Positions 15,429 to 35,982 of a stretch of 64,000 nt of DNA are shown here, piece by piece. This DNA comes from Candidatus Adlerbacteria bacterium (lineage in GTDB: Bacteria; Patescibacteriota; Minisyncoccia; Phycocordibacterales; SBAW01). Each line of letters begins with the position of its first letter. Positions within the stretch are counted from its first letter, which is position 1. The notes under the pieces are model-generated. The model searched no databases, was not told the origin of the DNA, and saw nothing but the letters and a program-made list of their open reading frames with translations. Made by a program: the position numbers and the translations under genes. The stretch covers positions 808 to 64,807 of the forward strand of contig CAIRHB010000002.1 of assembly GCA_903878285.1 (NCBI GenBank). The letters run 5' to 3'.

Positions 15429-15455
15429 ACCCGCAATCCTAGCAAAAAAGCAGCT

Positions 15456-16834: not shown

Positions 16835-16836
16835 GT

Positions 16837-17187
16837 ATGGCAGAGATAGAACGCATATACATAAAAGACCTGACCCTCCATTCGAGGGAGTCTCGCCCGA
16901 CTACCAAATTCTCAAAGGTTGCCGAAAAAGGCCGTATGTATCGGCCTATCGGCATTAGCCAGACCAAGGAAGTCGCCCCGACAGGTTTTTTACACCTCTT
17001 CGATTTCGAATTACCACAAGACCTAAAAGAGAGGGTTGATCGGGGTGAAGTCGAAATCATGATGCCCGAGGACGGAGTGAATATATACCTTGGGGATGAT
17101 GCCCAAGAAAAGCTCACCCAATTGAACGCCCAAGCTCGTCGCGAACTTATCCACCGCAGCCGCGGCAAGGATTGGCACGCGGAGTAG
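16837..17187 (+). CDS. Hypothetical protein
   Basis: 116-aa ORF divergent from the minus-strand operon. Start codons of the two are 2 nt apart. Confidence 0.35.
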   Translation: MAEIERIYIKDLTLHSRESRPTTKFSKVAEKGRMYRPIGISQTKEVAPTGFLHLFDFELPQDLKERVDRGEVEIMMPEDGVNIYLGDDAQEKLTQLNAQARRELIHRSRGKDWHAE

Positions 17188-17349
17188 AACGGCGTACAAT
17201 GAACGCACAACTGAATATTACTGGTGGTGCCTCGCAACTTGTTGCCACGCCCACTTCGTAGAGAAAGCCTTTGAGAATCACCCGTTGATTCCCTGAGACT
17301 TCCCCGCGAAGTGGGCTTTCTCGTTATTTATCAAGTAACGAAGAAAATT

Positions 17350-18633
17350 ATGGACAAGGAAAATATTGCGATTGTGTACGTACCCATTACTAACCTCAAG
17401 CCAGCCACCTACAATCCACGCAAGATCTCCAAGGAGGCAATGGAGCAGCTGAAAGAGAGTATCAAGCGATACTCAATGGTTGATCCCATAATCGCGAATT
17501 CTGCGCCCAAGCGTAAGGACATTGTTATTGGCGGACACATGCGTCTGCGTGCCGCAAAAGCACTCGGGCATAAAATCATTCCTGTGGTGTATGTAGATAT
17601 TCCTAACCTCAAGAAAGAGCAGGAATTGAACCTGCGTCTTAATCGCTCAACGGGAGAATGGGATTTCGAGAAGTTGAAGTTTTTTGACTCTGACTTTCTC
17701 ACCGACATCGGCTTTAACGATTCTGACTTGGCCGACATATGGAAAGAAAATCTCGAAGCTGAAAATGACGATTTCGACACCGATGCCGAACTCGCCAAAA
17801 TCAAGAAGCCAAAAACAAAACTCGGTGACTTGATTGCCCTCGGTGACCACCGCCTCATCTGCGGTGATTCAACCAATCCCGCAGTACTCAAGAAACTGCT
17901 TGGCAAGGATCGCGCCTCGATGATATATAGCGACCCTGTCTACAATATCCAGATTGATTACAACGGCGGTATCGGGGGTAAGCAGAATTACGGTGGCAAT
18001 GTAAACGATCACCGCACCTACGACGAGTACAAGGAATTCCTCAAGAAAAGCCTCGTAGCCGCTCTTGCAGTATCAAAGCCCGATACGCACGTTTTCTATT
18101 GGAGCGATGAGACATACATCGGCCTTATACAAGAGCTGTACCGCGACCTCGGCATTCAGAATAAGCGCGTATGTCTGTGGCTAAAAAATTCGCAAAACCC
18201 TGTACCATCCGTCGCGTTCAACAAATGCTACGAGCCATGTACATATGGCGTACGCGGAAAGCCATATATCTCTAAACACATTCTCAATCTCAATGAGGTG
18301 CTGAACAAGGAACTCACAACTGGCAATAATCTCATTCAAGAAACCTTGTATCATCTCGACCTGTGGATGGTTAAACGACTCTCGGGCAAGGACTACGAAC
18401 ACGCAACATCGAAGCCACCAAAGCTCCATGAAAAAGCGATACGCCGTTGCACCAAACCTAACGATATTATCCTCGACAGCTTTTCTGGCAGTGCTTCAAC
18501 AATGATTGCTGCCGATCAACTCAAACGCCGCGCCTACTTGGTCGAACTGGAACCGCGCTTCTGCGACCTGGCTATTAAGCGATACGAGAAGCTCACGGGA
18601 AAGAAAGCTCGCGTAATCTCCAACGGCTTATGA
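17350..18633 (+). CDS. ParB-like nuclease domain fused to DNA methyltransferase, copy B
   Basis: About 45% identity to copy A by eye (YNPRK, IVIGGHMRL; SDPVY variant of DPPY; FSGSAST). An alternative upstream start lies at 17311. Confidence 0.85.
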   Translation: MDKENIAIVYVPITNLKPATYNPRKISKEAMEQLKESIKRYSMVDPIIANSAPKRKDIVIGGHMRLRAAKALGHKIIPVVYVDIPNLKKEQELNLRLNRSTGEWDFEKLKFFDSDFLTDIGFNDSDLADIWKENLEAENDDFDTDAELAKIKKPKTKLGDLIALGDHRLICGDSTNPAVLKKLLGKDRASMIYSDPVYNIQIDYNGGIGGKQNYGGNVNDHRTYDEYKEFLKKSLVAALAVSKPDTHVFYWSDETYIGLIQELYRDLGIQNKRVCLWLKNSQNPVPSVAFNKCYEPCTYGVRGKPYISKHILNLNEVLNKELTTGNNLIQETLYHLDLWMVKRLSGKDYEHATSKPPKLHEKAIRRCTKPNDIILDSFSGSASTMIAADQLKRRAYLVELEPRFCDLAIKRYEKLTGKKARVISNGL

Positions 18634-19040
18634 AGAAAAATAAAGTAAAAGATGCGTTCCTTATGGAACTGCGAAAAATTCCGATTGTCCAAGTTGCCTG
18701 TGAAAAGGTCGGCGTGTCCCGCAATAGTGTCTACCGTTGGCGCACGGAGGATGAGGAATTTCGTAAAGAAATGGAAACGGCGCTCACGGAGGGCGAAGCG
18801 TTAGTAAATGATATGAGCGAAAGCCAATTACTCAGTCTTATTCGTGAAAAAAATTGGTCGGCAATTAGTTTCTGGCTACGACATCGCAACCCAAAGTTTA
18901 AGGAACGCGTAGAGATTACCGCGAAAATCGAGAAATCAAACGAGCCACTCACTCCCCAACAAGAGGCCGATATCAAGTTGGCGATGCAACTTGGACTACC
19001 GCAACAAACATATGGAGAAACTAAAAGCACTGACCAGTGA
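18630..19040 (+). CDS. Terminase small subunit-like HTH protein, copy B
   Basis: HTH (VGVSRNSVYRWRTEDEEF). It overlaps the start of the terminase large gene. Confidence 0.6.
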   Translation: MKKNKVKDAFLMELRKIPIVQVACEKVGVSRNSVYRWRTEDEEFRKEMETALTEGEALVNDMSESQLLSLIREKNWSAISFWLRHRNPKFKERVEITAKIEKSNEPLTPQQEADIKLAMQLGLPQQTYGETKSTDQ

Positions 19041-20475
19041 TGAAGAGCGAATCATCGAGCAGATGATTCGTGACAGGAACTTCCGCATAGCAATGGTGAC
19101 CAAAAGCCATTTCTGGTTCTTTCACTATTACTTTGGCAAGGACTATGTGAAATACCGCACCGCCGACTTCCATAAGGAAATATTCCAACTCACTGAAAAT
19201 CCCGATCTACAGAACATCGTCATTACCGCTTTCCGAGGTAGTGGCAAAAGTACGATAGTAACCCTCTCGTATGTAATTTGGTCGATCCTCGGCGAACAGC
19301 AGAAAAAGTACCCCATTATCCTCGGGCAGACCCAACTCAAGGCACAGGCGCACCTACAGGCTATCAAGCGTGAACTGGAGCATAACGAGGCTCTGAGAGC
19401 CGACCTAGGGCCGTTTCGCGAGGAGAATAACCAGTGGGGTGCGCTTTCCCTCATCCTCCCTCAATACGGAGCCAAGATATCTACGGGGTCGGTGGAGCAG
19501 AGCATACGAGGTATGCGTCACTATCAGCACCGCCCCGACCTCATCATCTGTGACGACATCGAGGATCCCGATTCGGTGCGTACTCAAGAGAACCGCGACA
19601 AGCTGTTTGACTGGCTCACGGGCGATGTACTTCCTGCGGGAGACAAAGGTACGCGCATGATGTTCATTGGCACACCACTTCACGAGGACTCACTGCTTCG
19701 TCGCCTCGAAAAGCTGTTTACGAATGGCGATGCAAAAAGTGCGTTTCGGCGATATCCAATTGTTGATGAAAACGGCACACCACTGTGGATTGGTAAATTT
19801 GCAACTCAAAACGATATTGATGCAGAGAAAGCGAAGTGCCTCAACATCGTGGCATGGCAACGCGAGTACATGCTGAAGATAGTGCAGAGCGATACGCAGA
19901 TCGTAAAGCGTGAATGGATAAAAACGTACACAGAAGTACCGAGCGGACCAGATTGTAAATTCAGGTATGCCGCTACAGCCATTGATCCTGCACGCTCACA
20001 AAAGGCAACGGCGGATTGCACAGCAATGGTATCGGGCAAGATATACGGCACGAAAGCTGATAGAAAAATCTATATCATGCCGAATCCCATAAACGCTCGA
20101 CTGACCAGTGAGCAAACTATCCAGAGTGCCGTAAATATTTCACTCGCCCTCGGGAATGGAGCAGCTACAAAGGTATATGTTGAGGAAGTGGGGCTTCAGG
20201 GGTATCTCACTGACTTTCTAAAAGCGCGTGGCATACCCGCTATTCCGTACCCGATTCGTGGGCAAACCAAAGAGGGTCGATTACAGGCGGTTGCCGCGCT
20301 TATCGAACTAGGTACGATACTCTTTCCCGAGAAAGGTGCAGAGCAACTGGTAGAGCAGATCCTAGGATTTGGCACCGAGAAGCATGACGATTTAGTCGAT
20401 GCGTTTACGATTCTCGTTCTACAACTTTTAGAAAGCACAAAACTCTATCCACAAATACAGTGGATCCGCCTCTAA
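18991..20475 (+). CDS. Phage terminase large subunit
   Basis: Walker A (FRGSGKST), Walker B (LIICDD), and a C-terminal RNase-H-like nuclease region (AIDPA...KHDDLVDA). Confidence 0.85.
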   Translation: MDYRNKHMEKLKALTSDEERIIEQMIRDRNFRIAMVTKSHFWFFHYYFGKDYVKYRTADFHKEIFQLTENPDLQNIVITAFRGSGKSTIVTLSYVIWSILGEQQKKYPIILGQTQLKAQAHLQAIKRELEHNEALRADLGPFREENNQWGALSLILPQYGAKISTGSVEQSIRGMRHYQHRPDLIICDDIEDPDSVRTQENRDKLFDWLTGDVLPAGDKGTRMMFIGTPLHEDSLLRRLEKLFTNGDAKSAFRRYPIVDENGTPLWIGKFATQNDIDAEKAKCLNIVAWQREYMLKIVQSDTQIVKREWIKTYTEVPSGPDCKFRYAATAIDPARSQKATADCTAMVSGKIYGTKADRKIYIMPNPINARLTSEQTIQSAVNISLALGNGAATKVYVEEVGLQGYLTDFLKARGIPAIPYPIRGQTKEGRLQAVAALIELGTILFPEKGAEQLVEQILGFGTEKHDDLVDAFTILVLQLLESTKLYPQIQWIRL

Positions 20476-20554
20476 GAGGCTAAATACCATGCGACGAAAC
20501 GGCTAGTCTGCATAGCTATGCAGGGCTGGTGGTTCTGGCATCAATGGTGGTCGC

Positions 20555-21880
20555 ATGAATATACAAGCACCAACAGCCCTTATGGGCAAACCACAACTAT
20601 TACCAGCAGTAAAAATGAAGTACGTTCTTTATGCTCGAAAAAGCACCGAGACAGAAGAACGGCAGATATTGTCGATTGATTCGCAGGTAAAAGAGATGCT
20701 CCAAATTGCCGAGCGAGAGAATATAGAGGTTATAGATATTCGTCGCGAGTCGCATTCGGCAAAGGATTCGGGGCAGAGGCCAGTCTTTAAAGAAATCCTC
20801 GAAGATCTACGGCGACAACGATTTAATGGCATTCTGACATGGGCACCAGATCGTTTGAGTCGAAACGCAGGTGACCTCGGAAGCCTCGTAGATTTAATGG
20901 ATCAAAAGTTACTGCTCGAAATTCGGACTTACGGTCAACAGTTCAGAAACTCACCAAACGAAAAGTTCTTGCTGATGATTCTCTGTAGCCAAGCAAAGCT
21001 CGAAAACGACAACAAAAGTATTAACGTGAAGCGAGGGCTTCGGACGAGGTGCGAAATGGGACTGAGGCCAGGCTCACCACCGATCGGATATCTGAACGAG
21101 CGGCACATGGATAGAAAGTGCGAAGCGATAGTAGATCCCGAACGAGGCCCTGTAATTAAGAAAATCTTTGAGAAAGTAGCATACGAAAAGTGGAGTGGTC
21201 GAAAGATATATAACTGGCTGAAGTTCGACCTGAATTTCAAGAGTGCTACTGGCAAGAAAGGCCTCGCTCTCGGCAATATCTACCTCATTCTTCAAAATCC
21301 TTTTTACTACGGTGTTTTTGAGTATCCTGCAAAGAGCGGGAACTTTTATACAGGCAAACACACACCGCTCATTACGAAAGAGCTTTTTGATCAAGTGCAG
21401 TCGCAGGTGAAAAGTAACGTGCTTCGGGTTGAGAATAAGGAGTTTGCCTTCACTAAACTCATGACATGCGGAATGTGCGGTTCGGGCATATCTGCCGACG
21501 AGAAGTTCAAGAAGCAAAAGAATGGCGGCGTACACAGACATGTCTACTACGGCTGTACCAAGGCGAGAGACAAGAACTGCAAGGGCGGATACATAAATGA
21601 GGTGGAGCTGATCGAGCAACTCGAAGTACTCATGGAGGAAATGAACTTAGACGAGATTGGCATCAAAGAAAAGATTAAGAATGAAGTGACGAGATTCAAA
21701 AAGTTTCAGAAAGTGCTCTTGGGTAAAAAAGAAGAAGTAAACGTAGTCGATATTGATATCAGAAACTACATGCGTTTTATCCTCCGTGAGGGCGAAGATT
21801 CAGAGAAAAGAGAATTGCTCGGCTGCCTTACATCGAGAGTTTCGCTGAAGGAAAAGAAACTGACGCTAGCAAATGTTTAG
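20555..21880 (+). CDS. Large serine recombinase, copy B
   Basis: About 65-70% identity to copy A by eye, with the same YARKST / SIDSQ catalytic region and zinc ribbon. Confidence 0.9.
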   Translation: MNIQAPTALMGKPQLLPAVKMKYVLYARKSTETEERQILSIDSQVKEMLQIAERENIEVIDIRRESHSAKDSGQRPVFKEILEDLRRQRFNGILTWAPDRLSRNAGDLGSLVDLMDQKLLLEIRTYGQQFRNSPNEKFLLMILCSQAKLENDNKSINVKRGLRTRCEMGLRPGSPPIGYLNERHMDRKCEAIVDPERGPVIKKIFEKVAYEKWSGRKIYNWLKFDLNFKSATGKKGLALGNIYLILQNPFYYGVFEYPAKSGNFYTGKHTPLITKELFDQVQSQVKSNVLRVENKEFAFTKLMTCGMCGSGISADEKFKKQKNGGVHRHVYYGCTKARDKNCKGGYINEVELIEQLEVLMEEMNLDEIGIKEKIKNEVTRFKKFQKVLLGKKEEVNVVDIDIRNYMRFILREGEDSEKRELLGCLTSRVSLKEKKLTLANV

Positions 21881-21883: not shown

Positions 21884-24181
21884 CTAGAGAGATTTTAGTC
21901 GCGTTAAAACCTCTTCCGTGTTGCCCGTGTGAACCAAGAAAAAGTGCAATTTGCCTTTACCAAGCTTTGCCCACACATTTGCAATTTCAACTTTGTATGC
22001 AGTATCGTCGTTACTGATACGATCTTCACCTTTCCACTCGAGAGCAACAATGCTGCCCTTCTTTGTGACAGCAACGAAATCGGGATAAAATTTTCCCTTG
22101 CGCCATCCTTGAATATAAAACGGATCGACTTTCTCACGGTTGCGGACCCAGAACTCGATGTTGTCCAAAATGCCGAGGTCGATACGCTCAACGAAGCCAC
22201 GTTCCTCGCCATTGATAGCGTCTATCCTTTCGTAGAGGTTCTTGTTAAATACCTTAGCCACTGGTGATTTAAGCGTGATAGTTGGTGGGTATGAATCGAA
22301 AGCATCTACTGAGAGTTTCTTTTTTGAAATGAGGCCCGTAAAAACCTTTTTGGTGTATGCCTCAAGTACTTCAGTAATAACTACAGAAAGTCGATCGGCC
22401 AATAAATATCTATTTACCGAGAGTTCAGGAAGTGAGCGTTTGTGTTTCTTAATTTGGGTCTGTACTGCTTTCTCAATAAATCCGACCTTGTCGTCAGGAC
22501 TGACCATTGGAAATCGCAGTTTCTTATCGAGCCATGATATCAACTCATCGGTGGAATGGTCGCCATCGAGATACTGGTACGGGAGTGAAAGTTGCTTACC
22601 TTGTAACCACTCGTCGTCTTCCGTGATGTCGATAGTGGCTTGTCCGTCTAGGTCGTAGTGAATCTTGAACCCAAAATCAGCGTCCTGTTTTGCGAGTTCA
22701 AAATCTTCACCCAAAAGATCTTCAAACGCGAGCTTATCTTTTCCGAACGTCATCATCGGGACTTTGAGATCTTTCTTGATTGCTTTCTTTGCCTCCATCG
22801 GATCGGCGTATTCTTTCTCATCAGTCGCACCTACAAAATCAGCCCTGCTGTAACCGTTGTCTTCAAGGCCTTTGATCACACGACTCGCTGCATCATTAAA
22901 ATTTGGGGCTGACGCAAATACATAGCTACGATTGAGTGCCTCGTCTGTTTTTCGTTTTGCATTAGGCATGCGGATAACACGGCCGATGATTTGTTCAACT
23001 GCAACTTTCGCACCTAAGTTGGCAACAGAAATAAGTACATAGGCATACGAACAATCCCAACCCTCGGAGAGAGCGTTCACGGTAAGTATGTACCGAACTT
23101 CACATTTCTTATCGAACAAATCGATCCCATCAAGCTCATCCACTTCAGAGGTTTTAATCTTAATCTGGCTTTCAGGAATTTTTCTATCCAAAAGCAGCTT
23201 CTTTAATTGTTCTACGGTGACAGTTGTACGCACCTTGCTCTTCGGTTGGGCCTGAAGTAGGGCGATTGGGCGAATGCGTTCGCCTTTTAGCTTTCCTGCT
23301 CGCTTCTCAAGTTCCTCACGCTTCATCAGACCATCTGCGACGACCTGCTCCCATTGTGATCGGCTCTCAAGCACGATTGGGATTTTGACCATGTCTTCGA
23401 GCTTGAGTTCAGCAGCGCCGATCTTCACGAGCACATTACTCCCGTCACGAGGAGTAGCGGTAAATTCAATGATGAAAGAAGGCTTGAGATCTGAGAGGAA
23501 TCGAATAGAGAGATCGGTCTGCGTGTGATGTCCCTCGTCGATGACGATAAGCGGATTATTCTTGCGGATCACATTGGCGAGCGAGTTCACGACCGTGCCA
23601 GCGTCGTCTTTTTCTAGCATCGACTCGTCTTTAAGATTTTGGAAGTGATCCATGAGAGACCCGTTCTCTTTGTAGACTTTGTACTTCTTTTGAATTGAGG
23701 AGTCTTTGCGGAACGCATCGAGGCTGGCCACAATGATGCAGAGATTATTGCGTACATCTTCCGGCGTAATGGTGAGCGCCTCTTCGTTCGAGAAAATCTT
23801 AAACTTGGTATCGAATGACTCGTTGAGCATCTCGTAGTGCCAGTCCTTTGCATCACGGAATTTCTTTAGGGTCTGTGTCTTGATCGAGTCTGACGGCACG
23901 AACCACATCACAATTCCGGTATCCATTTTATGCTGGAGCGAAATGCTCATGATGCGCTCAACTGCTTTGCAGCCGACAAGCGTCTTACCGCCACCAGTTG
24001 GAATACGGATACACACAAACGGCACATCCCCAAACCACTCGTGGTTGTACTTTGGCCAGTCGTGACCGTACTTCTCCTCGGTGATCTCAGTAAAGGCATA
24101 GCGCGGCTTCAGCTTCTTGGACAACTCCAAAAATTGGCTGAGAGTATCTATGGCACTTTCCTGATAGCGCTTTAGTTTCAT
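21884..24181 (-). CDS. Type III restriction enzyme Res subunit
   Basis: SF2 helicase motifs (PTGGGKT, VIDEGHH) and a C-terminal endonuclease region. It is located directly downstream of mod. Confidence 0.85.
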   Translation of the reverse strand: MKLKRYQESAIDTLSQFLELSKKLKPRYAFTEITEEKYGHDWPKYNHEWFGDVPFVCIRIPTGGGKTLVGCKAVERIMSISLQHKMDTGIVMWFVPSDSIKTQTLKKFRDAKDWHYEMLNESFDTKFKIFSNEEALTITPEDVRNNLCIIVASLDAFRKDSSIQKKYKVYKENGSLMDHFQNLKDESMLEKDDAGTVVNSLANVIRKNNPLIVIDEGHHTQTDLSIRFLSDLKPSFIIEFTATPRDGSNVLVKIGAAELKLEDMVKIPIVLESRSQWEQVVADGLMKREELEKRAGKLKGERIRPIALLQAQPKSKVRTTVTVEQLKKLLLDRKIPESQIKIKTSEVDELDGIDLFDKKCEVRYILTVNALSEGWDCSYAYVLISVANLGAKVAVEQIIGRVIRMPNAKRKTDEALNRSYVFASAPNFNDAASRVIKGLEDNGYSRADFVGATDEKEYADPMEAKKAIKKDLKVPMMTFGKDKLAFEDLLGEDFELAKQDADFGFKIHYDLDGQATIDITEDDEWLQGKQLSLPYQYLDGDHSTDELISWLDKKLRFPMVSPDDKVGFIEKAVQTQIKKHKRSLPELSVNRYLLADRLSVVITEVLEAYTKKVFTGLISKKKLSVDAFDSYPPTITLKSPVAKVFNKNLYERIDAINGEERGFVERIDLGILDNIEFWVRNREKVDPFYIQGWRKGKFYPDFVAVTKKGSIVALEWKGEDRISNDDTAYKVEIANVWAKLGKGKLHFFLVHTGNTEEVLTRLKSL

Positions 24182-24187
24182 AAATAT

Positions 24188-25879
24188 TTAGTAGACCTTA
24201 ATTTCGTACGGAATCTGCTTGAAGGTGATTCCTTTTTCTTTCAGCTCATCCTCGTCAATGAGACAGCGATCGGCGTAGATGACAGCCGTGCCACTTACCT
24301 TGAGCTTTGATAGCGCCGCGCGAGTGAGGTCGTTTTTGTTTTTGCCGGAATAGATGAGGTAGTACGAAGTGCCGTGATTTTCGCCGATCATCGGCGGCTT
24401 CACGGCTTTTTTGTCGATGTTGGTATGAGTCTCGGTGAAATAAATATAGCTGGCCAATTGATCGTAAGAGCAGGTCTCATCAATCTGTCCTTTTTCGTCG
24501 AAGAGAGGTTTTGCCAGCTCACAGAACTCAAAATCAGATTTGTAATCGTATTTACTTATCATGCTTTTCACTCGAGTAGCCGTAATTGGCATGGCCACAG
24601 AATCTTCCATTTCTACAAGGATAAATTTTCTGCTGCCACCGTCCTCTTTATTTAAATCCAAGACTGCGTGTGCTGTTGTGCCGGAACCTGCAAATGAATC
24701 AAGCACCATATCATTTTTACCTGTTCCGATTTTTACAATGTACTTGATAAGGTCTTTTGGTTTCGGGTACTGAAAACTTATTTTCATGCTCTCTAGTTCG
24801 GACCGCATCTTCTCAGTGGTACTGAAATTTCTAAGCACGGACACGATGTGACTCACATTATTGCCTCGATCTTTGCGGTAATAAATAACCCCATTTTCAC
24901 TTATGTAAAAACTTAACTTCATTCCGTCGCCATCGTTTATAGGTTCGCATTTATTCTCAATGAATGATCGCAGTTTGTTGGCATTAGCCCAGCCAGAAAA
25001 CACCTTACATGGTTTCTTAAGCTTGCCCATCTCGACGGTGAGAGGATTGATTCTTAGAGGAAATTGTACTTTTCCATATTTAGCCTTGAGTTGATTGCTG
25101 GTCAGATCACTTGCTTTCATTTGCTCGATCAGGCCACGCGGGATATCACTGGCAGGCAAAGATAATTTCTCGACAGTACAAGGAAATCCTGCTGGAAGCT
25201 CTATCTCGCTCGGAGGATTCCCCGGACCATTTTTGGTAATTGAATTTTCTGCAAAACCCGCCCAGAGATTGCTTTCTTCTCGAGTGTTTGGGTCTATTAC
25301 ATTTCCGAGAGCCATTTTTGGTCTTGCGGCAGAATACATAACGATGTACTCATGGTTAACTTTCACATGGAATTGATTGTCCGTATGGCCATCAGTATTC
25401 CAGACGAATTGTGCTACAAAATTATTCTTACCAAAAATCTCGTCCATTAAATACCTCAATGATTGGACTTCGTTATCATCAATACTTACGAATATCACAC
25501 CGTCTTCCGATAGAAGGCGTTTTAGTAAATTAAGTCTCGGATACATCATGCAGAGCCATTTGTCGTGACGAGTTAGATCCTCCGATTCAGGACCGACAAC
25601 GCTACCGATCCACTCTTTAATTTTGGGAGAATTAACCTTGTCGTTGTAGACCCACTTTTGTTTCCCTGTGTTGTATGGAGGATCGATATAAATGCACTTG
25701 ATTTTCCCTTGGTAGAAGGGCATCAGGGCCTTTAAGGCTTCGAGATTGTCACCGTGGATGATGAGATTTTCGGACGATTTGCCGACAGACGCACCCGAGA
25801 CTTTTTCAAGGAGCTTAAATGGCACCTCCTTGTCGTGGTTTACTACTGCGTCTTTGCCGATCCAATTTAGAGTTGCCAT
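24188..25879 (-). CDS. Type III restriction-modification Mod subunit (N6-adenine DNA methyltransferase)
   Basis: IDPPYN catalytic motif and FAGSGTT AdoMet motif. It forms an operon with res. Confidence 0.85.
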   Translation of the reverse strand: MATLNWIGKDAVVNHDKEVPFKLLEKVSGASVGKSSENLIIHGDNLEALKALMPFYQGKIKCIYIDPPYNTGKQKWVYNDKVNSPKIKEWIGSVVGPESEDLTRHDKWLCMMYPRLNLLKRLLSEDGVIFVSIDDNEVQSLRYLMDEIFGKNNFVAQFVWNTDGHTDNQFHVKVNHEYIVMYSAARPKMALGNVIDPNTREESNLWAGFAENSITKNGPGNPPSEIELPAGFPCTVEKLSLPASDIPRGLIEQMKASDLTSNQLKAKYGKVQFPLRINPLTVEMGKLKKPCKVFSGWANANKLRSFIENKCEPINDGDGMKLSFYISENGVIYYRKDRGNNVSHIVSVLRNFSTTEKMRSELESMKISFQYPKPKDLIKYIVKIGTGKNDMVLDSFAGSGTTAHAVLDLNKEDGGSRKFILVEMEDSVAMPITATRVKSMISKYDYKSDFEFCELAKPLFDEKGQIDETCSYDQLASYIYFTETHTNIDKKAVKPPMIGENHGTSYYLIYSGKNKNDLTRAALSKLKVSGTAVIYADRCLIDEDELKEKGITFKQIPYEIKVY

Positions 25880-25880
25880 A

Positions 25881-26126
25881 TTATTCGGTGCTCGTTTGCT
25901 TTAAAAAATTTTCAAATTCACTGCGGTCTATCCGAAACTCCTTACCAATTTTGTGTGCTTTAAGTCGTTTCGCCTTGATGTAGCGGTAAATGGTCATGAC
26001 GTTCAGACTCAACTTCTCGGCTAGATCGTGCGCCGTGTAGAACTCTTTTTCGTCTTTCTCCATACTTTTATGATACTTTACTTTTGTTGACATTACAACA
26101 CTCGAAGGAATACAATGTGGATGCAA
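25881..26126 (-). CDS. Excisionase-family HTH DNA-binding protein (possible R-M controller)
   Basis: The MTIYRYIKAKRLKAHKIGKEFRI motif matches the excisionase-family DNA-binding domain. The true start is probably an internal Met. It abuts the mod start. Confidence 0.6.
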   Translation of the reverse strand: MHPHCIPSSVVMSTKVKYHKSMEKDEKEFYTAHDLAEKLSLNVMTIYRYIKAKRLKAHKIGKEFRIDRSEFENFLKQTSTE

Positions 26127-26127
26127 T

Positions 26128-29100
26128 ATGACTGATCTTAAGAAACATTACGTCAAATTCAAAGAGTCACTCTCAGACGTTAGAATCATAACCGCGAACC
26201 TCTTGGTATTGATCAAGACAGCCTTTTTGAGTGTCCTGAGCGCCGAAATATGGCGTTTCTCAACCGCCCTCACGGGAAAAGTAAATATATGGATTGCAGC
26301 CAATGGCTATGAGTGGTGGGCAATATGGCTTTGCGTTGCGGCCACGATATTGGTCATCGCATATCTCATAATTCGAGGTGTCTTCACAGATATAAAAAAG
26401 ATATTCAAGAGTTACCGTGCCGACGTTCTTCTTGCTCTCTGCTTCGGCATATGGGTCAGCGTGGCATGGGGCGGTTTCTTGACGGGGTGGGATACAAAGG
26501 TCATTGCTTCGCTGAATTTGAAACAGATATGTACTCTCATAGTTGGACCATTTCTTTTGGGCGTCTTGGTGATGGCACGTCAATTGTTCCACACGACCGA
26601 TAAAACCGTTTCGTCGCTCGTCGTTGATAAGGAGCTAAGAGGAAAAGAGAACGATCTCCTAAACTTTGCATCAAAAGCAGATGCGTTCGCGGAGAGAGTA
26701 TTCAACGACGGTTCGCCAGAAAGTTTCGTATTCGGCGTAGATGCACCTTGGGGTATAGGCAAATCAACATTCATAAATTTCTGTACTGAATATTGGGAGA
26801 AAGAGCATGCGGAAAAAATTGTCGTCTACAAATTCAGCCCGCTTCAATACCTTGGCGCAGACAATCTGCTCGAGGTTTTCATCGATGGGTTAATCCATGC
26901 AATTCAGAAAGATTCGTTCATTCCGGAAATAAAACCTTTGATTTCTCGATACGCACGATTACTTAAGGAGATAAAGCACTTCTCAATATTTGGACTCACG
27001 CTTCCAACATTCATGACGGATTACAGTGCAGAGGAAGCCTGCGATGATTTGAGCGCAGTATTGAAACGTTTTCCTAAGAAGGTCATAGTCATTATTGATG
27101 ATCTCGACCGTATCAACTTTGCTGAGATAAAAGATATTCTGTTTGTGATACGAAAGAGTTTTGCGTTTCCAAACGTGTCCTACGTCATCTGCTATGACAC
27201 AGACAATATCGGGGTACTAGAAGCGGAAACGCCGGAAATAGATAAGGTTGGTGAGTTTTTGGAGAAATTTGTGAACATAAAAATCAGCCTCTATTTAGAG
27301 AGAGAAGACCTAGCGAAGTTTGTCTCCGAAAACCTTGAAAAGACGCTGCCAGCCAGCCTCCTCGTTGACCCATTGCCAATGCGCCAAGCTGTCGGAGGAC
27401 TACTCGATATATATAAATCGACTACATACCACCGCTATTTACCATTCATAGGAGATGTGAGGAAGTTAAAACGACTCATCAATACAGTCCTAATGTTCGA
27501 TTTGCAGAAGACGGACTTCAAGAACAGTGACTTCGATAAGCGAGATCTGGTGAATCTGTTGCTGATCTATATTCATTATCCGAATATCTTTAGGAAGATC
27601 TATGACACCGAGACAAAAGGCGGTCGTGGTTTCTTTTCACTTGTGTTGCCGCATGAAGATGGCTACCCCGAAGATGCGTCGGGACAAAGGCGTTCTTCTT
27701 TCAGCGATTCTACGTACAAGAACTCCACTTATTTTACGGAGTACATGAAGCAATTCCCTGAGGACAGTCATCAGCGCTTCCTTTTGAATCAGGTATTTAA
27801 TGTCGATGTAAGACTGAAAATGACTAGTACTGGTTTCCCGACGGCAAACGACTACGCCAAGATTGATAGCGTCCCAGAAGACGTACGTACATCACTCGCC
27901 TGTTTCAATGGTGGTTGGACCAATGGTAGAAACCTCGAGACATATTTGGATCTGATAGTAAATCTCTCGAAGCCCGTAGATATTGGCCAGCACAGGTTCT
28001 ATATGACATGGAGAGAAGCCATTATCAACAAGACAAAAACTCTTACTGAGGCTTTTGCCGATCCAAAATTTGCATACGTAGAGGGCGAATACCCAAGAGA
28101 GAGGTTGTGGCGAATATTGGTAAACAACGCCCGAGAACTGCAAAGCGATATTGCCGCTGATATTATTTCTCATCTTTTGGACACGATTCCGGACTATTCA
28201 CTGATTGAATTTCAAGAAGAAAATACGGGTAGCGGAATGAGACACAGCATGGACTATTTTTTGACCAGACTGCTGAATGATGCGGGGTGGACGGACAAAC
28301 AGGGTAAACATTCGGGCAATATGGAGCCATATATTAACGAGATTGCCGAATGGATTTTTGGAGATGGCCGACACGAAGGAAAGGGGGTGATATCGAGACT
28401 ATCCGACGCTACACGAGGTGTATTAGGAATCTACGACCTTATGGTGTTCCGGCTTACGTGTAGCAGTGATCGTGGTGGAGATATCTTCGACCTTTCCAGA
28501 GCACTGGCACAACATGCGAATAAAGATGCGCCGACACAGGGAGACACTCGTGTCATTGCCCGTGAGGAAATGCGTGAAATATCACAGAAGGTATTTGAAA
28601 TCTTCAATGCAAGATACATCGTCCCGAAGAAAAATATTTTTGCCGAAATTGATGCGTTGAAAACTGGAGATCTCGCTGGCAAATACAACGAATACATCAC
28701 TAAAAAGGTGGCGGACGGCGTATTTCAGGTAAGTGATATCGAAAAGAAAACTTCAGAACTTAAAACACGCATTGGTTCTTTTGTTCTGTACCAGTTAGCA
28801 AATGCCGAAATCAATCTTGGAGCAGGATGTGGGTTCTATGATCCGATGGGCAAAGAAGACAAACATCAAATTAGAGACCTCGTAAATGATTACATATTCT
28901 CTTGTTTCGATCCGTCTGACAAAAAGAATACTGAGTATTTCATTGATTATCTTTTTAGAAACTTTGCGAATGCCATTGCTTCAGCCAGAGAAGACGGAGA
29001 TCAATACATTCCGAGTATAAATGAGTTTACGAAGGTTTTGGATGCAAAGAAACTTGCAACGTTTTGGCAAAAGCATGGAGTAGCCTACAAAGCTCTTAAG

Positions 29101-29265
29101 CTCGAGGAGAGTAGCAAGGTCGTCATGATAGGTAAAGACGAGGCCTCATACAAGAAGTACGTGCCAATGGTATACAAAGTGTTAGATGAAAACGTGACGA
29201 CGGTTTCATCGGCTGACACATCAAAAGCGGAAACCCCGGTAGCCGATCCTGCATCCCAAGAATAA
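26128..29265 (+). CDS. KAP-family P-loop NTPase with N-terminal transmembrane domain (Tmn-like)
   Basis: Four N-terminal TM helices. KAP Walker A is GVDAPWGIGKSTF and Walker B is VIVIIDDLDR. 1045 aa, low GC. Confidence 0.85.
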   Translation: MTDLKKHYVKFKESLSDVRIITANLLVLIKTAFLSVLSAEIWRFSTALTGKVNIWIAANGYEWWAIWLCVAATILVIAYLIIRGVFTDIKKIFKSYRADVLLALCFGIWVSVAWGGFLTGWDTKVIASLNLKQICTLIVGPFLLGVLVMARQLFHTTDKTVSSLVVDKELRGKENDLLNFASKADAFAERVFNDGSPESFVFGVDAPWGIGKSTFINFCTEYWEKEHAEKIVVYKFSPLQYLGADNLLEVFIDGLIHAIQKDSFIPEIKPLISRYARLLKEIKHFSIFGLTLPTFMTDYSAEEACDDLSAVLKRFPKKVIVIIDDLDRINFAEIKDILFVIRKSFAFPNVSYVICYDTDNIGVLEAETPEIDKVGEFLEKFVNIKISLYLEREDLAKFVSENLEKTLPASLLVDPLPMRQAVGGLLDIYKSTTYHRYLPFIGDVRKLKRLINTVLMFDLQKTDFKNSDFDKRDLVNLLLIYIHYPNIFRKIYDTETKGGRGFFSLVLPHEDGYPEDASGQRRSSFSDSTYKNSTYFTEYMKQFPEDSHQRFLLNQVFNVDVRLKMTSTGFPTANDYAKIDSVPEDVRTSLACFNGGWTNGRNLETYLDLIVNLSKPVDIGQHRFYMTWREAIINKTKTLTEAFADPKFAYVEGEYPRERLWRILVNNARELQSDIAADIISHLLDTIPDYSLIEFQEENTGSGMRHSMDYFLTRLLNDAGWTDKQGKHSGNMEPYINEIAEWIFGDGRHEGKGVISRLSDATRGVLGIYDLMVFRLTCSSDRGGDIFDLSRALAQHANKDAPTQGDTRVIAREEMREISQKVFEIFNARYIVPKKNIFAEIDALKTGDLAGKYNEYITKKVADGVFQVSDIEKKTSELKTRIGSFVLYQLANAEINLGAGCGFYDPMGKEDKHQIRDLVNDYIFSCFDPSDKKNTEYFIDYLFRNFANAIASAREDGDQYIPSINEFTKVLDAKKLATFWQKHGVAYKALKLEESSKVVMIGKDEASYKKYVPMVYKVLDENVTTVSSADTSKAETPVADPASQE

Positions 29266-29353: not shown

Positions 29354-29443
29354 TGGCGGAGACGGAGGGATTCGAACCCTCGAGGGCGGTAAAGCCCTGC
29401 CTCGTTAGCAGTGAGGTACTTTCGACCACTCAGCCACGTCTCC
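29354..29443 (-). tRNA. tRNA-Ser (anticodon GCU)
   Basis: I folded it by hand. Acceptor stem is GGAGACG/CGTCTCC, T-arm is GAGGG-TTCGAAT-CCCTC, and there is a long variable arm. The anticodon loop is CTGCTAA and CCA is encoded. Confidence 0.9.
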
Positions 29444-33171: not shown

Positions 33172-35982
33172 TCACAACCCGCCTTGTGCGAGTGTTGCGG
33201 GAGATTGGGCGGAGGAGGAGAGGCCGCTCGCGATCTCGGACTCGATGTCGGCGCGGGGGCGGCCGTAGCGCAGGTAGGACATCTGCCGCATCTGGTCGGC
33301 GAACTCTTGTGTCCCCGCAGGGAATGGGAGCGTCTCGATATTAAACGGCTGCGACGGCTTGCCATTGACCAACATCTTGAGGTAGGCATTGCGGTTGTCG
33401 ACGTTCATCAGGTCGCGCGCGCTAAAGGTTGGCGCAAACTGCTTCTCCAGCTGCTCGGCGTCGGCAGCGCCGATGCGGAACGCACAGATCGAGCCCACGT
33501 TGCCAAACACCGCGTCGCGGATCTCGTCGGTGAGCTGCGCGATAAACTGGTGCGCAACGGTGAGCGACAGCTTGTACTTGCGCGCCTCGGAGAGAATGGT
33601 CGCGATCGACGGCGTCGTGACGTTTTGGAACTCGTCGATGTGGAGATAAAACACGGGCAGCTCCTTCCCCACCGAGTCGGCACGCGACAACGCCGCGATG
33701 AGGAACTTGCCGACGATAATGAGCCCCAGCAGGTTGGCATTGATCTCGCCGATGCGACCCTTTGCCAAGTTGACGAGCAGAATCTTTTTCGTGTCCATAA
33801 TCTCGCGGAAGTTGAACGACGAGTGCTGCTGCGCGATGATGGGGCGCATGATCTCGTTGGTCGTAAAGATATCGAACTTGTTGGTCACATACGGGGCATA
33901 ATTTTCCAAGCCCTGCTCGCCAGTCGTCTTCATTGCGATATCCTCCCAAAAGCGTTTGACGATTGGGTTCTTACACGCCGCGAGTTTTTGCAAGCGGAAG
34001 GACTCGTCGCTAAAGACGCGCGTAATGTCGAGTAATGTGTTGCCCGACGCGGGATCCTCCATCACCAAGAGCGCCGAGTTGCGGAAGTATTGCTCGAACG
34101 CGGGGCCCATGCTCTCGGGCGAGTTGCCGAAGAGTTTCTTGAATATGCCAAAGAGCTCATCCACCACGAGCGTCTTTTGCTCGGGGCGCGAGGCATCGTA
34201 CTCGAGCATGTTGAGCGCCATCGGCCGCTCGGTCGCACCCGGGTCGAAGTAGATCACGTCTGCCATCCGCTCGGGCGGCACCGCTGAGAGCACGTCGAGC
34301 ACGTCGCTGCCGTGTGGGTCGATCATACACACGCCCGCGCCCGATTTAATGTCCTGGATAATCACATTTTTGAGCAAGGTCGATTTACCCGTGCCGGTCT
34401 GACCGATGACGTAGAGGTGGCGCAGACGATCCTCGGGCATGATGCGCACCTCGCGCGTCTCGCCGCGGAAGCGGCTTACGCCGAGTATTGCGCCCTCGCT
34501 TGGCAGGTCGCTCGGGGGCGCTGCGGCAGCACTCTTTTCCTGCCGGAGATCGGGCGCTGCAAACTTGCTACTCGTGCCTGGCAGATGTGCGATGGTCGCG
34601 AGCTCCTGTGTCGACAGCGGCATCGCGTGCTCGGGCTCAAAGAGCCGGTAGGAAAACTGATACGCAAAGGTCTTGACGCGGCGATGATGCACAGGGATGA
34701 ATGTAAGGCTGTTGCCCGCTGTGTCGGCAAACTGCTGAAAGGGTCCCTCGAGCTCCTGGAGGATATCCTCGGCGCGCTGGCGGGTCGCGGCGGATGCGAC
34801 CACACGCATCGTTGTATGGACAATTGGGCTTGCGATCTTGCTCTCGATATTTTTAAGCCGCGGGTCGTCGGGCTGGAGGCGCTTGTCCTGCTCGACCTTC
34901 TCGGGTGGCGAGAAGGATTCGACCACCTCACGCACAAAGCGCATGAAGCCGGTCTTAACGTTCGTCGCGTGATGCAGCTCGACGCCTGAGGGCACCTCTC
35001 CGAGCGCAGTGCGGTAGTGCTTGAGAAGCCCACGGTCATAGGGCGAGACAACAAACTGCACCGCCGCGCCCTCGCCTGCCCGCTCTAATTTTGAAAACGC
35101 GTTGAGCAGCACATCGAGCGGGTCGTTGGGAAACTGCTCGAAGAGCCGCAACGCATAGATCGGGCGCTCCGCTTGTGTCACATACGCGGCAGCAACCTCG
35201 CCGCCAGGTGCGAAGATGTTGTAATCATCACGGCGCTCGGTGAGCCGCGCAGTCGGATATAATCCCGACAGTAATTTTTCAAACAACACGCGCCGCCAAT
35301 ACGGCACCGCAACATAGAGCGCCGTGTGCGACTTGCCCGCAGGGTTGGCTATTTCGAACGAGAAATATTCGCCCTTCTTTGCATCCATCTGGAGCATGCC
35401 GCGGTAGAGCTGCTCCATCAGCTGGACAAAGTCGTGCACCGCCTTGGCTGCATCGGCGGGCTTGTCCTTGTCAGACTCGGTACCGGGGAAGGTAATTTCA
35501 TAGAGCACGAGCGAGAGCGGAGTACGACACTTTTTTTCCTGCGAACCTTTTGCAGGCAGCCCCTCGCGCACCCACTCGACCAAGACACGATGGAAGTCGT
35601 CGATCAGGTGCGGATTGCCCGTCTGCTCGGCGGCGGCGATCGCCCGCGACACGCCGCGCTCTTGCAGCACGCCGATGATGCCACCCATCAGATCATCGTG
35701 CGCCTCGGGAGCCAATTGCAGGGTGATTGCCTCTGGCTGTGCCACTGCCGCACGCGGATTCTCGGGGCTTGGTGCCGGCACCCCCGCGGCCTTTTGCCAG
35801 TGCTCGGCAACCGCCACGTGCGCAGCATCACGCTGACTTGGTGCTTTCTCCCCTGCTGCGCCAACTGTGCCGCGTGCATCTTCCATCTGCAGCTGCTTCT
35901 CTAGCTGTGCCGCACGCGCGCGCAGTTGCTCCAACTCCGCCCGCGCCTCCGGCCCCACCATCCGCCCTTCGATACTGTTCAT
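33172..35982 (-). CDS. AAA-like / type IV secretion-type ATPase (VirB4/VirD4/TraG-like, DUF87-like)
   Basis: Walker A (VIGQTGTGKST), Walker B (LHIDEFQN), and the downstream ARKYKLSLTVAHQ block typical of T4SS/FtsK-HerA-clade ATPases. 936 aa. Confidence 0.55.
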   Translation of the reverse strand: MNSIEGRMVGPEARAELEQLRARAAQLEKQLQMEDARGTVGAAGEKAPSQRDAAHVAVAEHWQKAAGVPAPSPENPRAAVAQPEAITLQLAPEAHDDLMGGIIGVLQERGVSRAIAAAEQTGNPHLIDDFHRVLVEWVREGLPAKGSQEKKCRTPLSLVLYEITFPGTESDKDKPADAAKAVHDFVQLMEQLYRGMLQMDAKKGEYFSFEIANPAGKSHTALYVAVPYWRRVLFEKLLSGLYPTARLTERRDDYNIFAPGGEVAAAYVTQAERPIYALRLFEQFPNDPLDVLLNAFSKLERAGEGAAVQFVVSPYDRGLLKHYRTALGEVPSGVELHHATNVKTGFMRFVREVVESFSPPEKVEQDKRLQPDDPRLKNIESKIASPIVHTTMRVVASAATRQRAEDILQELEGPFQQFADTAGNSLTFIPVHHRRVKTFAYQFSYRLFEPEHAMPLSTQELATIAHLPGTSSKFAAPDLRQEKSAAAAPPSDLPSEGAILGVSRFRGETREVRIMPEDRLRHLYVIGQTGTGKSTLLKNVIIQDIKSGAGVCMIDPHGSDVLDVLSAVPPERMADVIYFDPGATERPMALNMLEYDASRPEQKTLVVDELFGIFKKLFGNSPESMGPAFEQYFRNSALLVMEDPASGNTLLDITRVFSDESFRLQKLAACKNPIVKRFWEDIAMKTTGEQGLENYAPYVTNKFDIFTTNEIMRPIIAQQHSSFNFREIMDTKKILLVNLAKGRIGEINANLLGLIIVGKFLIAALSRADSVGKELPVFYLHIDEFQNVTTPSIATILSEARKYKLSLTVAHQFIAQLTDEIRDAVFGNVGSICAFRIGAADAEQLEKQFAPTFSARDLMNVDNRNAYLKMLVNGKPSQPFNIETLPFPAGTQEFADQMRQMSYLRYGRPRADIESEIASGLSSSAQSPATLAQGGL

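What the first reader, a model, noticed from the sequence alone, without database searches (positions are those of the whole stretch)
21884..29265. Defense sub-cluster: type III R-M (mod-res) with an upstream HTH gene, divergent from a 1045-aa KAP NTPase with an N-terminal 4-TM domain
Mod and Res are clear from the DPPY and helicase motifs. A small excisionase-family HTH gene abuts mod and may act as a C-protein-like controller.

Divergently transcribed from it is a KAP-family P-loop NTPase (GVDAPWGIGKST; VIVIIDDLDR). Its transmembrane helices are N-terminal rather than inserted in the NTPase domain. This matches the single-gene Tmn-type defense genes that I recall from defense-island surveys.

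The start codons of the HTH and KAP genes are 2 nt apart, which suggests shared regulation.
Basis: partly seen in the sequence, partly recalled or inferred. Interest (0 to 1): 0.55.

Follow-up and report, generated by a model that had tools for sequence, protein, structure and literature searches.

The report
Type III R-M beside membrane KAP NTPase
A mobile element inserted next to a tRNA gene carries an intact type III restriction-modification operon led by a small DNA-binding protein, back-to-back with a large, uncharacterised membrane ATPase that in related bacteria sits beside many different restriction systems.

Summary
The four genes are real and intact: Res (21884-24181, -), Mod (24188-25879, -), an HTH_17 protein and a 1045-aa KAP P-loop NTPase (26128-29265, +) with four N-terminal hydrophobic helices.

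- The HTH gene starts at ATG 26063 (60 aa), not at TTG 26126. The two genes are therefore 64 nt apart, not 2 nt. This gap holds overlapping back-to-back promoter-like sites and a conserved 10-nt-period repeat.
- The KAP protein is not Tmn-like. [quoted passage not shown]

The protein belongs to a small family built as 4TM, KAP NTPase and an alpha-solenoid C-terminal domain, found mostly in Patescibacteria.

Among its closest relatives, 9 of 12 lineages have a restriction system of a different kind directly beside KAP (types I, II, IIS, III), usually headed by the same HTH. In contrast, 0 of 40 fully flanked loci with close relatives of this Res carry a KAP gene.

The R-M therefore looks autonomous, with HTH and KAP forming a constant frame around a swappable R-M slot in serine-recombinase elements. 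KAP is probably a second, membrane-acting defence layer, but this is inferred. Moderately interesting.

The parts
21884..24181 (-). res: type III restriction subunit, 765 aa, with an SF2 helicase-like ATPase and a C-terminal PD-(D/E)xK nuclease
   Evidence: Pfam ResIII 1.4e-16 and PADLOC REase_III 6.8e-93. Motifs are conserved against L011, L021 and L027 Res. It lies 6 nt after the mod stop codon.
24188..25879 (-). mod: type III N6-adenine methyltransferase, 563 aa, beta-class (DPPY, then the target recognition region, then FAGSGTT)
   Evidence: N6_N4_Mtase 6.9e-36 and PADLOC MTase_III 4.3e-146 over the full length.
25881..26063 (-). HTH_17 (excisionase/MerR-like) gene, 60 aa, first gene of the operon. 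The true start is ATG 26063.
   Evidence: HTH_17 1e-11 and TIGR01764 1.2e-11. The start is fixed by stop codons in the upstream frame of L006 and L010 and by 60-aa gene calls. MAD1 similarity is below the family cut-off, 28 bits against 80.
26064..26127 (.). 64-nt divergent control region. Plus strand: TTGACA-18-TACAAT at 26087-26116, before the KAP ATG. Minus strand: TTGTAA-17-TATCAT at 26098-26070, ending 6 nt before the HTH ATG. Direct repeat TGTCAAC-N3-AGTAAAG on the minus strand at 26092-26076.
   Evidence: Promoter scan. The repeat TGTAAAG-N3-(T/A)GTAAAG followed by TAT(A/C)AT, and an ATCCAC box, are conserved upstream of the homologous HTH in L006, L010 and L080. Function is inferred.
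26128..29265 (+). 1045-aa membrane KAP NTPase. Four TM helices (about aa 18-152, nt 26179-26583), KAP P-loop domain (aa 184-455, nt 26677-27492), alpha-solenoid C-terminal domain (aa about 461-1034, nt 27508-29229).
20555..21880 (+). Large serine recombinase, convergent with res across a 3-nt gap. This is the mobility gene of the element carrying the cassette (context).
   Evidence: Resolvase, Recombinase and Zn_ribbon_recom domains. A recombinase of this family lies near KAP in 15 loci.
29354..29443 (-). tRNA-Ser(gct), 89 nt after the KAP stop codon. Right border of the low-GC island (context).
   Evidence: ARAGORN and Rfam. GC profile.

Best explanation
This is a two-layer defence cassette at the tRNA-proximal end of a serine-recombinase mobile element.

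Layer 1 is an autonomous type III R-M.
- Mod methylates one strand of a short asymmetric site.
- The Res-Mod complex uses ATP and cuts unmodified DNA. This mechanism follows from established knowledge of EcoP15I-type enzymes.
- The operon runs HTH, then mod, then res, with gaps of 1 nt and 6 nt.
- It is transcribed from a promoter that ends 6 nt before the HTH ATG, so the mRNA is leaderless or nearly so.

Layer 2 is the divergent 4TM, KAP NTPase and alpha-solenoid protein.
- It has the tripartite logic of Avs/STAND defence proteins: the solenoid as sensor, the P-loop as NTP switch or oligomeriser, and the N-terminal four-helix membrane domain as effector or anchor.
- By analogy with PifA, Tmn and the experimentally validated KAP fusion proteins, it probably senses a phage component and acts at the membrane to stop infection.

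The 60-aa HTH_17 protein probably binds the 10-nt-period repeat. That repeat overlaps the -35 element of the KAP promoter and abuts the -10 element of its own promoter, so binding would set expression of both transcription units.

Shown here: gene identities, intact motifs, architecture, fold class, comparative context.
Inferred: defence role of KAP, operator function, membrane mechanism.
For: R-M identity and integrity.

Autonomy of the R-M: of 80 loci with Res 58-84% identical, 40 have enough flank on both sides, and none of these carries a KAP homologue.

Autonomy of KAP: over 57 dereplicated loci no upstream neighbour family recurs in more than a few loci, and most neighbours are housekeeping genes.

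KAP architecture:
- four N-terminal hydrophobic peaks in most of the 49 family members examined (three in the rest);
- invariant Walker A and Walker B residues;
- confident models;

Defence and mobile context:
- a large serine recombinase is the most recurrent neighbour, in 15 loci;
- the element borders a tRNA-Ser gene;
- R-M genes flank KAP in 9 of 12 close lineages.

Precedent: KAP NTPases fused to C-terminal regions of unknown function, found next to serine recombinases, protect against phage and need both Walker B and the C-terminal region (PMC13552941). PifA is reported to cause membrane leakage, and Tmn Mg2+ export and plasmolysis (PMC13001434).

Control region: an 11-of-12 promoter match falls exactly in the gap. 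The repeat and -10 element are conserved in four loci that carry four different R-M systems.
Against: - No experiment exists for any member of this KAP family.
- There is no hit to any full-length PADLOC defence model. PifA and QatA matches cover the NTPase core only.
- The whole protein is unusually conserved for a defence gene, 43-84% identity across labelled Patescibacteria lineages.
- Promoter-like sites are not enriched in the region as a whole: 6 found against 12.4 expected.
- The first copy of the repeat is degenerate in the window (TGTCAAC).
- The strong one-sided link of KAP to R-M systems could mean functional dependence and not two independent layers.
Confidence: 0.5

Rival explanations
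1. KAP is an R-M companion, either a guard or a back-up. It works only together with an adjacent restriction system of any type. For example, it could sense restriction failure, anti-restriction proteins or cleavage products, then trigger a membrane response, much as PrrC is coupled to a type I system.
For: In 9 of 12 close KAP lineages an R-M of a different kind lies directly beside KAP. The kinds are type III, ApaLI, an Eco57I-like methylase with a nuclease, an EcoRI-like methylase with DUF262-HNH, MvaI/BcnI, AlwI, DpnII and type I. In the co-directional cases the gap to KAP is 4-50 nt, which fits one operon. Adjacency survived at least eight cassette replacements and one inversion.
Against: - The partners share no common protein, so direct contact is unlikely.
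- More distant family members (68% identity or less, including Paenibacillus and Pseudomonas) mostly have no R-M nearby.
- The closest relative, L003 at 84% identity, has none.
- The pattern can also arise from homologous recombination between two conserved flanks.
Confidence: 0.2
2. KAP and HTH are core genes of the mobile element and are not a defence system. They are the conserved flanks of a cargo hotspot where R-M cassettes are exchanged. KAP serves the element itself, for example in entry exclusion, DNA uptake control or maintenance.
For: KAP sits at the very edge of serine-recombinase elements: beside tRNA-Ser here, beside host aminoacyl-tRNA synthetase genes in L077, and convergent with the recombinase in L012, L014, L024 and L025. 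It is highly conserved while the neighbouring cargo varies.
Against: Many family members show no recombinase or element hallmark within 6 kb upstream or 3.5 kb downstream. The tripartite TM, NTPase and solenoid architecture is typical of immune sensors. KAP fusion proteins have demonstrated antiphage activity (PMC13552941).
Confidence: 0.15
3. The HTH_17 protein is the excisionase, or another directionality or regulatory factor, of the recombinase element. It is not a transcriptional controller of the R-M and KAP genes.
For: It matches the excisionase-family model TIGR01764 at 1.2e-11 and lies inside a recombinase element.
Against: In the loci that carry it (8 of the 9 R-M-adjacent lineages) it is always the first gene of an R-M operon, tightly coupled to the next gene, with its own conserved promoter and repeat. 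As far as I know, the directionality factors described for large serine recombinases are not of this fold. Most elements carrying a related recombinase lack this HTH.
Confidence: 0.1
4. One reading: the KAP protein is a Tmn-type single-gene defence system.
For: Both are single-gene, membrane-bound P-loop NTPases with C-terminal ARM/HEAT-like solenoids (PMC13001434). Tmn was originally labelled a KAP NTPase (10.1101/2022.08.21.504612).
Against: Tmn has two TM helices inserted after Walker A and belongs to the YobI family. Here there are four helices, all N-terminal, and the KAP_NTPase match is continuous over residues 184-455. No Tmn or YobI model appears in the Pfam or PADLOC results.
Confidence: 0.03

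Closest known systems
EcoP15I/EcoP1I-type type III restriction-modification systems
   Same: mod precedes res in one operon. Mod is a beta-class N6-adenine methylase. Res has SF2 helicase motifs and a C-terminal PD-(D/E)xK nuclease. PADLOC type III models match strongly.
   Different: Res is shorter, 765 aa against profile lengths of about 870-990 aa. A 60-aa HTH_17 gene leads the operon. The recognition site is unknown.
KAP P-loop NTPase fusion antiphage proteins (EF_KAP and three metagenomic examples, PMC13552941)
   Same: A KAP NTPase domain plus membrane helices plus a long C-terminal region with no known domain. Single gene, found next to a serine recombinase.
   Different: EF_KAP has two TM helices, one N-terminal and one inside the NTPase domain, and a 322-aa tail. 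This protein has four N-terminal helices and a tail of about 590 aa that folds as an alpha-solenoid. The recombinase here is a large one. No sequence comparison was possible because the paper's sequences are not held.
PifA of the F plasmid (T7 exclusion)
   Same: KAP-family NTPase core. It is the best PADLOC hit at 7.9e-28. It is membrane-associated and acts at the membrane (PMC13001434).
   Different: PifA lacks TM helices. The match covers only part of the NTPase core (profile positions 165-254 of 720 in the best stretch). There is no similarity in the C-terminal domain.
Tmn (YobI-family transmembrane NTPase)
   Same: Single-gene membrane P-loop NTPase with a C-terminal ARM/HEAT-like solenoid thought to set specificity.
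   Different: It belongs to a different NTPase family. Its two TM helices are inserted inside the P-loop domain. No profile match was found.
Avs / STAND antiviral NTPases and RADAR RdrA
   Different: This protein is in the KAP clade, not STAND. Its N-terminal module is a four-helix membrane domain. It has no RdrB-like partner.
C-protein-controlled R-M systems and variable defence hotspots such as the E. coli immigration control region (from my own knowledge)
   Same: A small HTH gene heads a restriction operon and has repeats in its own promoter. Conserved flanks surround interchangeable R-M systems.
   Different: The fold is HTH_17, whereas C proteins are XRE-type. The HTH is shared between unrelated R-M cassettes and does not co-vary with one of them.

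Membership tests
Type III R-M | Mod is a beta-class N6-adenine methyltransferase with motif IV (DPPY) before motif I (FxGxG) | tested here: met
   DPPY near residue 66 and FAGSGTT near residue 395. PADLOC MTase_III 4.3e-146 over 1-562 of a 542-position profile.
Type III R-M | Res has SF2 helicase motifs and a C-terminal PD-(D/E)xK nuclease | tested here: met
   TGGGKT, DEGH, TATP, QxxGRxxR and PDF...ExK are conserved in four homologues. REase_III 6.8e-93.
Type III R-M | mod and res are adjacent, co-directional and intact | tested here: met
   6-nt gap, no internal stops, lengths equal to homologues.
Type III R-M | ATP-dependent cleavage that needs two inversely oriented unmethylated sites, with hemimethylation of the site | not testable with these tools
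   Needs biochemistry or methylome data.
KAP P-loop NTPase (PF07693) | Profile match above the curated threshold with Walker A and Walker B intact | tested here: met
   133 bits against a cut-off of 20. K212, D324/D325 and R328 are invariant in 49 sequences.
KAP P-loop NTPase (PF07693) | Two or four TM helices inserted within the NTPase domain (classical description, from my own knowledge of Aravind et al. 2004; that paper is not held) | tested here: not met
   All four hydrophobic segments lie before residue 155. None lies between Walker A and Walker B. PMC13001434 describes KAP helices as lying outside the P-loop domain, so the literature differs on this point.
Tmn (YobI family) | Two TM helices inserted in the P-loop domain after Walker A | tested here: not met
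   compared with PMC13001434 and 10.1101/2022.08.21.504612.
Tmn (YobI family) | Profile match to a Tmn or YobI model | tested here: not met
   Pfam at E up to 0.01 lists only KAP_NTPase and ATPase_2. PADLOC lists PifA, QatA and PDC-S20 only. I could not verify that the PADLOC copy contains a Tmn model.
PifA | Full-length similarity to PifA | tested here: not met
   The match is restricted to the NTPase core. The best stretch is residues 300-389 against profile positions 165-254 of 720.
KAP-fusion antiphage proteins (PMC13552941) | KAP NTPase, membrane helices and a long C-terminal region with no known domain, in a single gene near a serine recombinase | tested here: met
   no PDB sequence relative; the C-terminal domain occurs only in this architecture.
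KAP-fusion antiphage proteins (PMC13552941) | Phage protection that depends on Walker B and on the C-terminal region | not testable with these tools
   Needs plaque assays.
C-protein R-M controller | XRE-type HTH that co-varies with its own R-M and binds C-boxes in its own promoter | tested here: not met
   The fold is HTH_17, not XRE. The same HTH heads unrelated R-M systems. Among 48 close type III relatives with readable sequence upstream of mod, only 3 have a detectable homologue of this HTH. Repeats do exist in its promoter, so the way it works may be similar.
MADS MAD1 | NCBIfam equivalog score | tested here: not met
   28.2 bits against a cut-off of 80.

The most novel reading that the evidence does not exclude
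The 4TM, KAP NTPase and solenoid protein, together with its HTH_17 partner, is a general restriction companion. It would be a membrane-bound sensor and effector selected to sit in one transcription unit with whatever R-M system occupies the slot. It would act with R-M systems of types I, II, IIS and III alike, for example as a back-up that fires when restriction is overcome or when foreign DNA is being cut. That would define a new class of R-M-linked second-line immunity, concentrated in Patescibacteria.
Probability: 0.2. Interest if true: 0.75.

Novelty: new variant of a known kind. Interest (0 to 1): 0.5.

Why it matters
- Patescibacteria are reported to rely mainly on restriction systems, and their other defences are poorly known (from my own knowledge).
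- The window points to a compact family of about 260 clusters at 50% identity among 1.84 billion representative proteins. Its members have a clean effector, switch and sensor layout, and none has been studied.
- In its core clade the protein sits beside at least eight different restriction systems, usually behind one shared regulator.
- If KAP is an antiphage protein, it extends the newly validated KAP-fusion class to a new topology and a new phylum.
- If it cooperates with restriction, it gives a testable case of layered immunity.
- The conserved HTH and KAP frame could also serve as bait for finding new restriction or defence cassettes in uncultured bacteria.
- The type III R-M itself is ordinary.

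Tried and rejected
- Attachment-site repeats. I searched for direct repeats linking the tRNA-Ser border to the left border and to the junction between the two tandem modules. Only a generic tRNA T-arm match appeared. Serine recombinases need no long repeats, so this is uninformative.
- Phase-variable repeats in mod or res: none.
- Structured RNAs inside 21884-29265: none at Rfam gathering thresholds.
- PDB sequence search with the 120-sequence KAP profile: no hit at E up to 1.
- Fold search of the full-length model: only NTPase-level hits in PDB and in viral models. The AlphaFold database library was not available.
- Organism name. Exact-sequence cluster look-up returned no names. 'Patescibacteria' rests only on the labels of homologous MAGs.
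- Aravind et al. 2004 (the KAP family paper) and the supplements of PMC13552941 are not held. I could not compare sequences with the validated KAP proteins.
- MAD1/MADS reading of the HTH: rejected because the score is below the cut-off.
- Viral contig scan for KAP: one full-length relative at 37% identity (L071) and four partial NTPase matches. Not followed further.
- Model coordinates cannot be read, so I could not check whether the invariant cysteines cluster in space.
Full report
**1. What is in the sequence**

The window carries four tightly packed genes at the stated coordinates.

res (21884-24181, minus strand, 765 aa)
- It matches Pfam ResIII (1.4e-16) and PADLOC REase_III (6.8e-93).
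- Aligned with three homologues, it keeps the helicase motifs TGxGKT, DExH, TATP and QxxGRxxR.
- It also keeps a C-terminal PD...ExK nuclease motif.

mod (24188-25879, minus strand, 563 aa)
- It matches N6_N4_Mtase (6.9e-36) and a PADLOC type III methylase profile end to end (4.3e-146).
- DPPY comes before FAGSGTT, which is the beta-class order typical of type III Mod.

Both genes are intact, have no simple repeats and are as long as their relatives.

The small gene upstream of mod is an HTH_17, excisionase-family protein (1e-11; TIGR01764 1.2e-11).

The 1045-aa protein on the plus strand (26128-29265)
- It matches KAP_NTPase (1.8e-38) continuously over residues 184-455.
- A Kyte-Doolittle scan shows four hydrophobic segments, all before residue 155.

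**2. Corrections to the observation**

The 81-aa HTH reading from TTG 26126 is a longest-ORF artefact.
- The domain match starts at residue 29.
- In homologous loci L006 and L010 the upstream frame contains stop codons.
- Other gene calls on identical sequence give 60 aa or 70 aa.
- The start is therefore ATG 26063, and the HTH and KAP start codons are 64 nt apart, not 2 nt.

This gap holds the best sigma-70-like match of the region: TTGACA-18-TACAAT at 26087-26116, which ends 11 nt before the KAP ATG. It also holds a minus-strand site, TTGTAA-17-TATCAT at 26098-26070, which ends 6 nt before the HTH ATG. The two -35 elements lie back to back. Promoter-like sites are not enriched in the region as a whole, so the support comes from position and from conservation.

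Upstream of the homologous HTH in L006, L010 and L080 the same elements recur: a 10-nt-period direct repeat TGTAAAG-N3-(T/A)GTAAAG, directly followed by TAT(A/C)AT, and an ATCCAC box. In the window the first repeat copy (TGTCAAC) coincides with the KAP -35 element. A protein bound there could affect both promoters. This is inference.

**3. Setting**

The genes lie at the right end of a low-GC island (about 6.4-29.35 kb). The island ends at a tRNA-Ser gene 89 nt after the KAP stop codon.

The island consists of two tandem, related modules.
- Each has a ParB-methylase fusion, a small-terminase-like HTH gene and a large serine recombinase, followed by cargo. The second module also has a large terminase (PHROG 38, 7e-84).
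- The two recombinases are 58% identical.
- The R-M and KAP genes are the cargo of the second module.

**4. The KAP protein and its family**

A database search found 346 relatives with E-value up to 1e-5; the 120 best listed are 43-84% identical, nearly all over 94-100% of the query. The source labels that are given are mostly Patescibacteria. A scan of species-representative genomes adds Paenibacillus, Pseudomonas, Burkholderiales and others at 28-40% identity.

- Most of the 49 full-length members examined show four N-terminal hydrophobic peaks; about a quarter show three.
- K212, D324/D325 and R328 are invariant.
- Cysteines C355, C592, C778, C901 and C926 are conserved in 46-49 of the 49 members.
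- The C-terminal 585 residues find only 261 clusters among 1.84 billion representative proteins. Almost all full-length hits place the domain at about residues 450-1000 of a protein of about 1000 aa. The domain therefore seems to exist only in this architecture.
- There is no sequence relative in the PDB.

AlphaFold2 models are confident: full length pLDDT 83 and pTM 0.71, C-terminal domain pLDDT 85 and pTM 0.81.
- The layout is therefore membrane domain, NTP switch, then repeat scaffold.

**5. Is it Tmn?**

No. [quoted passage not shown] It is now placed in the YobI family, distinct from KAP (PMC13001434).

Here the helices are N-terminal and the KAP match is unbroken. Neither Pfam nor PADLOC lists a Tmn or YobI model. 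The best PADLOC hit is PifA (7.9e-28), restricted to the NTPase core, followed by QatA.

The nearest published analogue is the class of KAP NTPases fused to uncharacterised C-terminal regions. These were found next to small serine recombinases and shown to protect Enterococcus faecalis from phage, in a way that depends on Walker B and on the C-terminal region (PMC13552941). That class has a different helix topology and a shorter tail.

**6. Relationship between KAP, the HTH and the R-M**

From the KAP side, 13 loci have KAP at least 69% identical to the window protein. They make 12 lineages, because only L011 and L021 are near-identical. In nine lineages a restriction system lies directly at the 5' side of KAP:

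| Locus | R-M beside KAP | Orientation relative to KAP |
|---|---|---|
| window | type III | divergent |
| L006 | ApaLI-like type II | divergent |
| L010 | HTH-fused Eco57I-like methylase plus a PD-ExK-like protein | divergent |
| L011 / L021 | type III (Res 62% identical to the window's; KAP start codon about 10-20 nt after the res stop codon) | co-directional |
| L018 | EcoRI-like methylase plus DUF262-HNH | co-directional |
| L078 | N6_N4 methylase plus MvaI/BcnI | co-directional |
| L079 | two Dam-like methylases plus AlwI | co-directional |
| L080 | DpnII with two methylases | co-directional |
| L081 | type I HsdR, HsdM and HsdS | co-directional |

- L003, L076 and L077 have no R-M at that position.
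- In the co-directional cases the gap before KAP is 4-50 nt.
- Two HTH_17 subtypes head these operons. Subtype A is in the window, L006, L010, L018 and L080 and is 63-73% identical to the window copy. Subtype B is in L011, L078 and L079, where the L011 copy is 87-90% identical to the other two.
- Each subtype is therefore combined with several unrelated R-M systems.
- In more distant KAP loci the link fades. A DNA methylase lies within 5 kb in only 12 of 64 loci (11 by motif scan plus L018's EcoRI-like methylase, which the motif pattern missed), and most neighbours are housekeeping genes.
- The most recurrent neighbour overall is a large serine recombinase, in 15 loci.

From the R-M side, 80 metagenome loci encode Res proteins 58-84% identical to the window's.
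- None contains a KAP homologue.
- 62 loci have at least 700 nt after res, 48 have at least 1 kb before mod, and 40 have both.
- Only three have either HTH subtype, and 21 contain a homologue of the window's recombinase.

Three conclusions follow.
- The type III system is autonomous.
- The HTH is not an intrinsic controller of this R-M family.
- HTH and KAP form a constant frame around a slot in which restriction cassettes are exchanged.

Whether that frame persists because KAP needs a restriction partner, or because two conserved flanks promote cassette exchange by recombination, cannot be decided from sequence.

**7. Most likely mechanism**

- The R-M works as a standard type III system. This follows from established knowledge.
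- The HTH probably regulates the bidirectional promoter region. This is inferred.
- KAP most likely acts as a membrane-anchored NTP switch whose solenoid senses a phage component and whose four-helix domain perturbs the membrane. This is inferred by analogy with PifA, Tmn, Avs and the validated KAP fusion proteins.
- I put about 0.5 on 'two co-regulated but separately acting defence layers'. I put 0.2 on KAP being a true restriction companion, 0.15 on KAP being an element core gene without a defence role, and 0.1 on the HTH being an excision factor.

**8. Verdict**

The Tmn assignment and the 2-nt spacing are wrong. The R-M is an ordinary new member of a known kind. The KAP protein is a new variant of a recently validated kind. 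The swappable-R-M frame seen in relatives is the part worth following up.

Noticed in passing
window 29354-29443 (-): tRNA-Ser(gct) lies 89 nt after the KAP stop codon. It marks the right border of the low-GC island (about 6.4-29.35 kb) and is probably the integration site of the recombinase elements.
   Followed up: partly
window 9548-9680 (-): Rfam LOOT RNA (RF03000, 78.8 bits against a gathering score of 46.4) lies just upstream of the first large serine recombinase gene (9859-11193). No counterpart exists before the second recombinase.
   Followed up: no
window 6850-17237: A first tandem module (ParB-methylase 6850-8181, small-terminase-like HTH 8120-8563, serine recombinase 9859-11193) is followed by minus-strand cargo at 11205-17237. 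The cargo holds a DUF4238 protein (12321-13319; PADLOC DUF4238-Pers 5e-5) and six ORFs with no match above the curated threshold (one has a sub-threshold zinc-ribbon hit), which may be further uncharacterised defence genes.
   Followed up: partly
window 17311-21880: The second module has ParB-methylase, small terminase, large terminase (PHROG 38, 7e-84) and a large serine recombinase, but no capsid or tail genes nearby. It looks like a satellite or a prophage remnant. The same terminase, recombinase and KAP synteny occurs in L014 and L025.
   Followed up: partly
L076 10211-10684; L078 10150-10623; L015 about 5050-5520: A 157-aa two-TM protein with a weak PycTM (Pycsar effector) match follows KAP in three relatives (3-nt and 15-nt gaps in L078 and L076; about 30 nt in L015). 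It is absent from the window.
   Followed up: no
window 26128-29265 (KAP residues C355, C592, C778, C901, C926): Five cysteines are conserved in 46-49 of 49 family members across phyla, which may indicate a metal or redox site. Model coordinates could not be inspected.
   Followed up: partly
L021 about 4430-5330: In this relative the gene before type III mod is a 298-aa protein whose sequence looks Fic-like, with a C-terminal HTH-like segment (both judged by eye; not scanned), in place of the 60-aa HTH.
   Followed up: no
L080 2202-4021: The same conserved bidirectional promoter region and HTH are present, but the divergent partner is a UvrD-like helicase. KAP lies at the far end of the DpnII operon.
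   Followed up: no
window 33172-37596: The host flank encodes a DUF8128/T4SS-DNA_transf-like ATPase (936 aa), a DKNYY protein and a pilin-like N_methyl protein. This annotation is precomputed for the identical contig.
   Followed up: no
window 53909-54294 and 49306-49378: tmRNA (tag AKSSVTSPYFSANEFAFA) and tRNA-Ile(tat).
   Followed up: no
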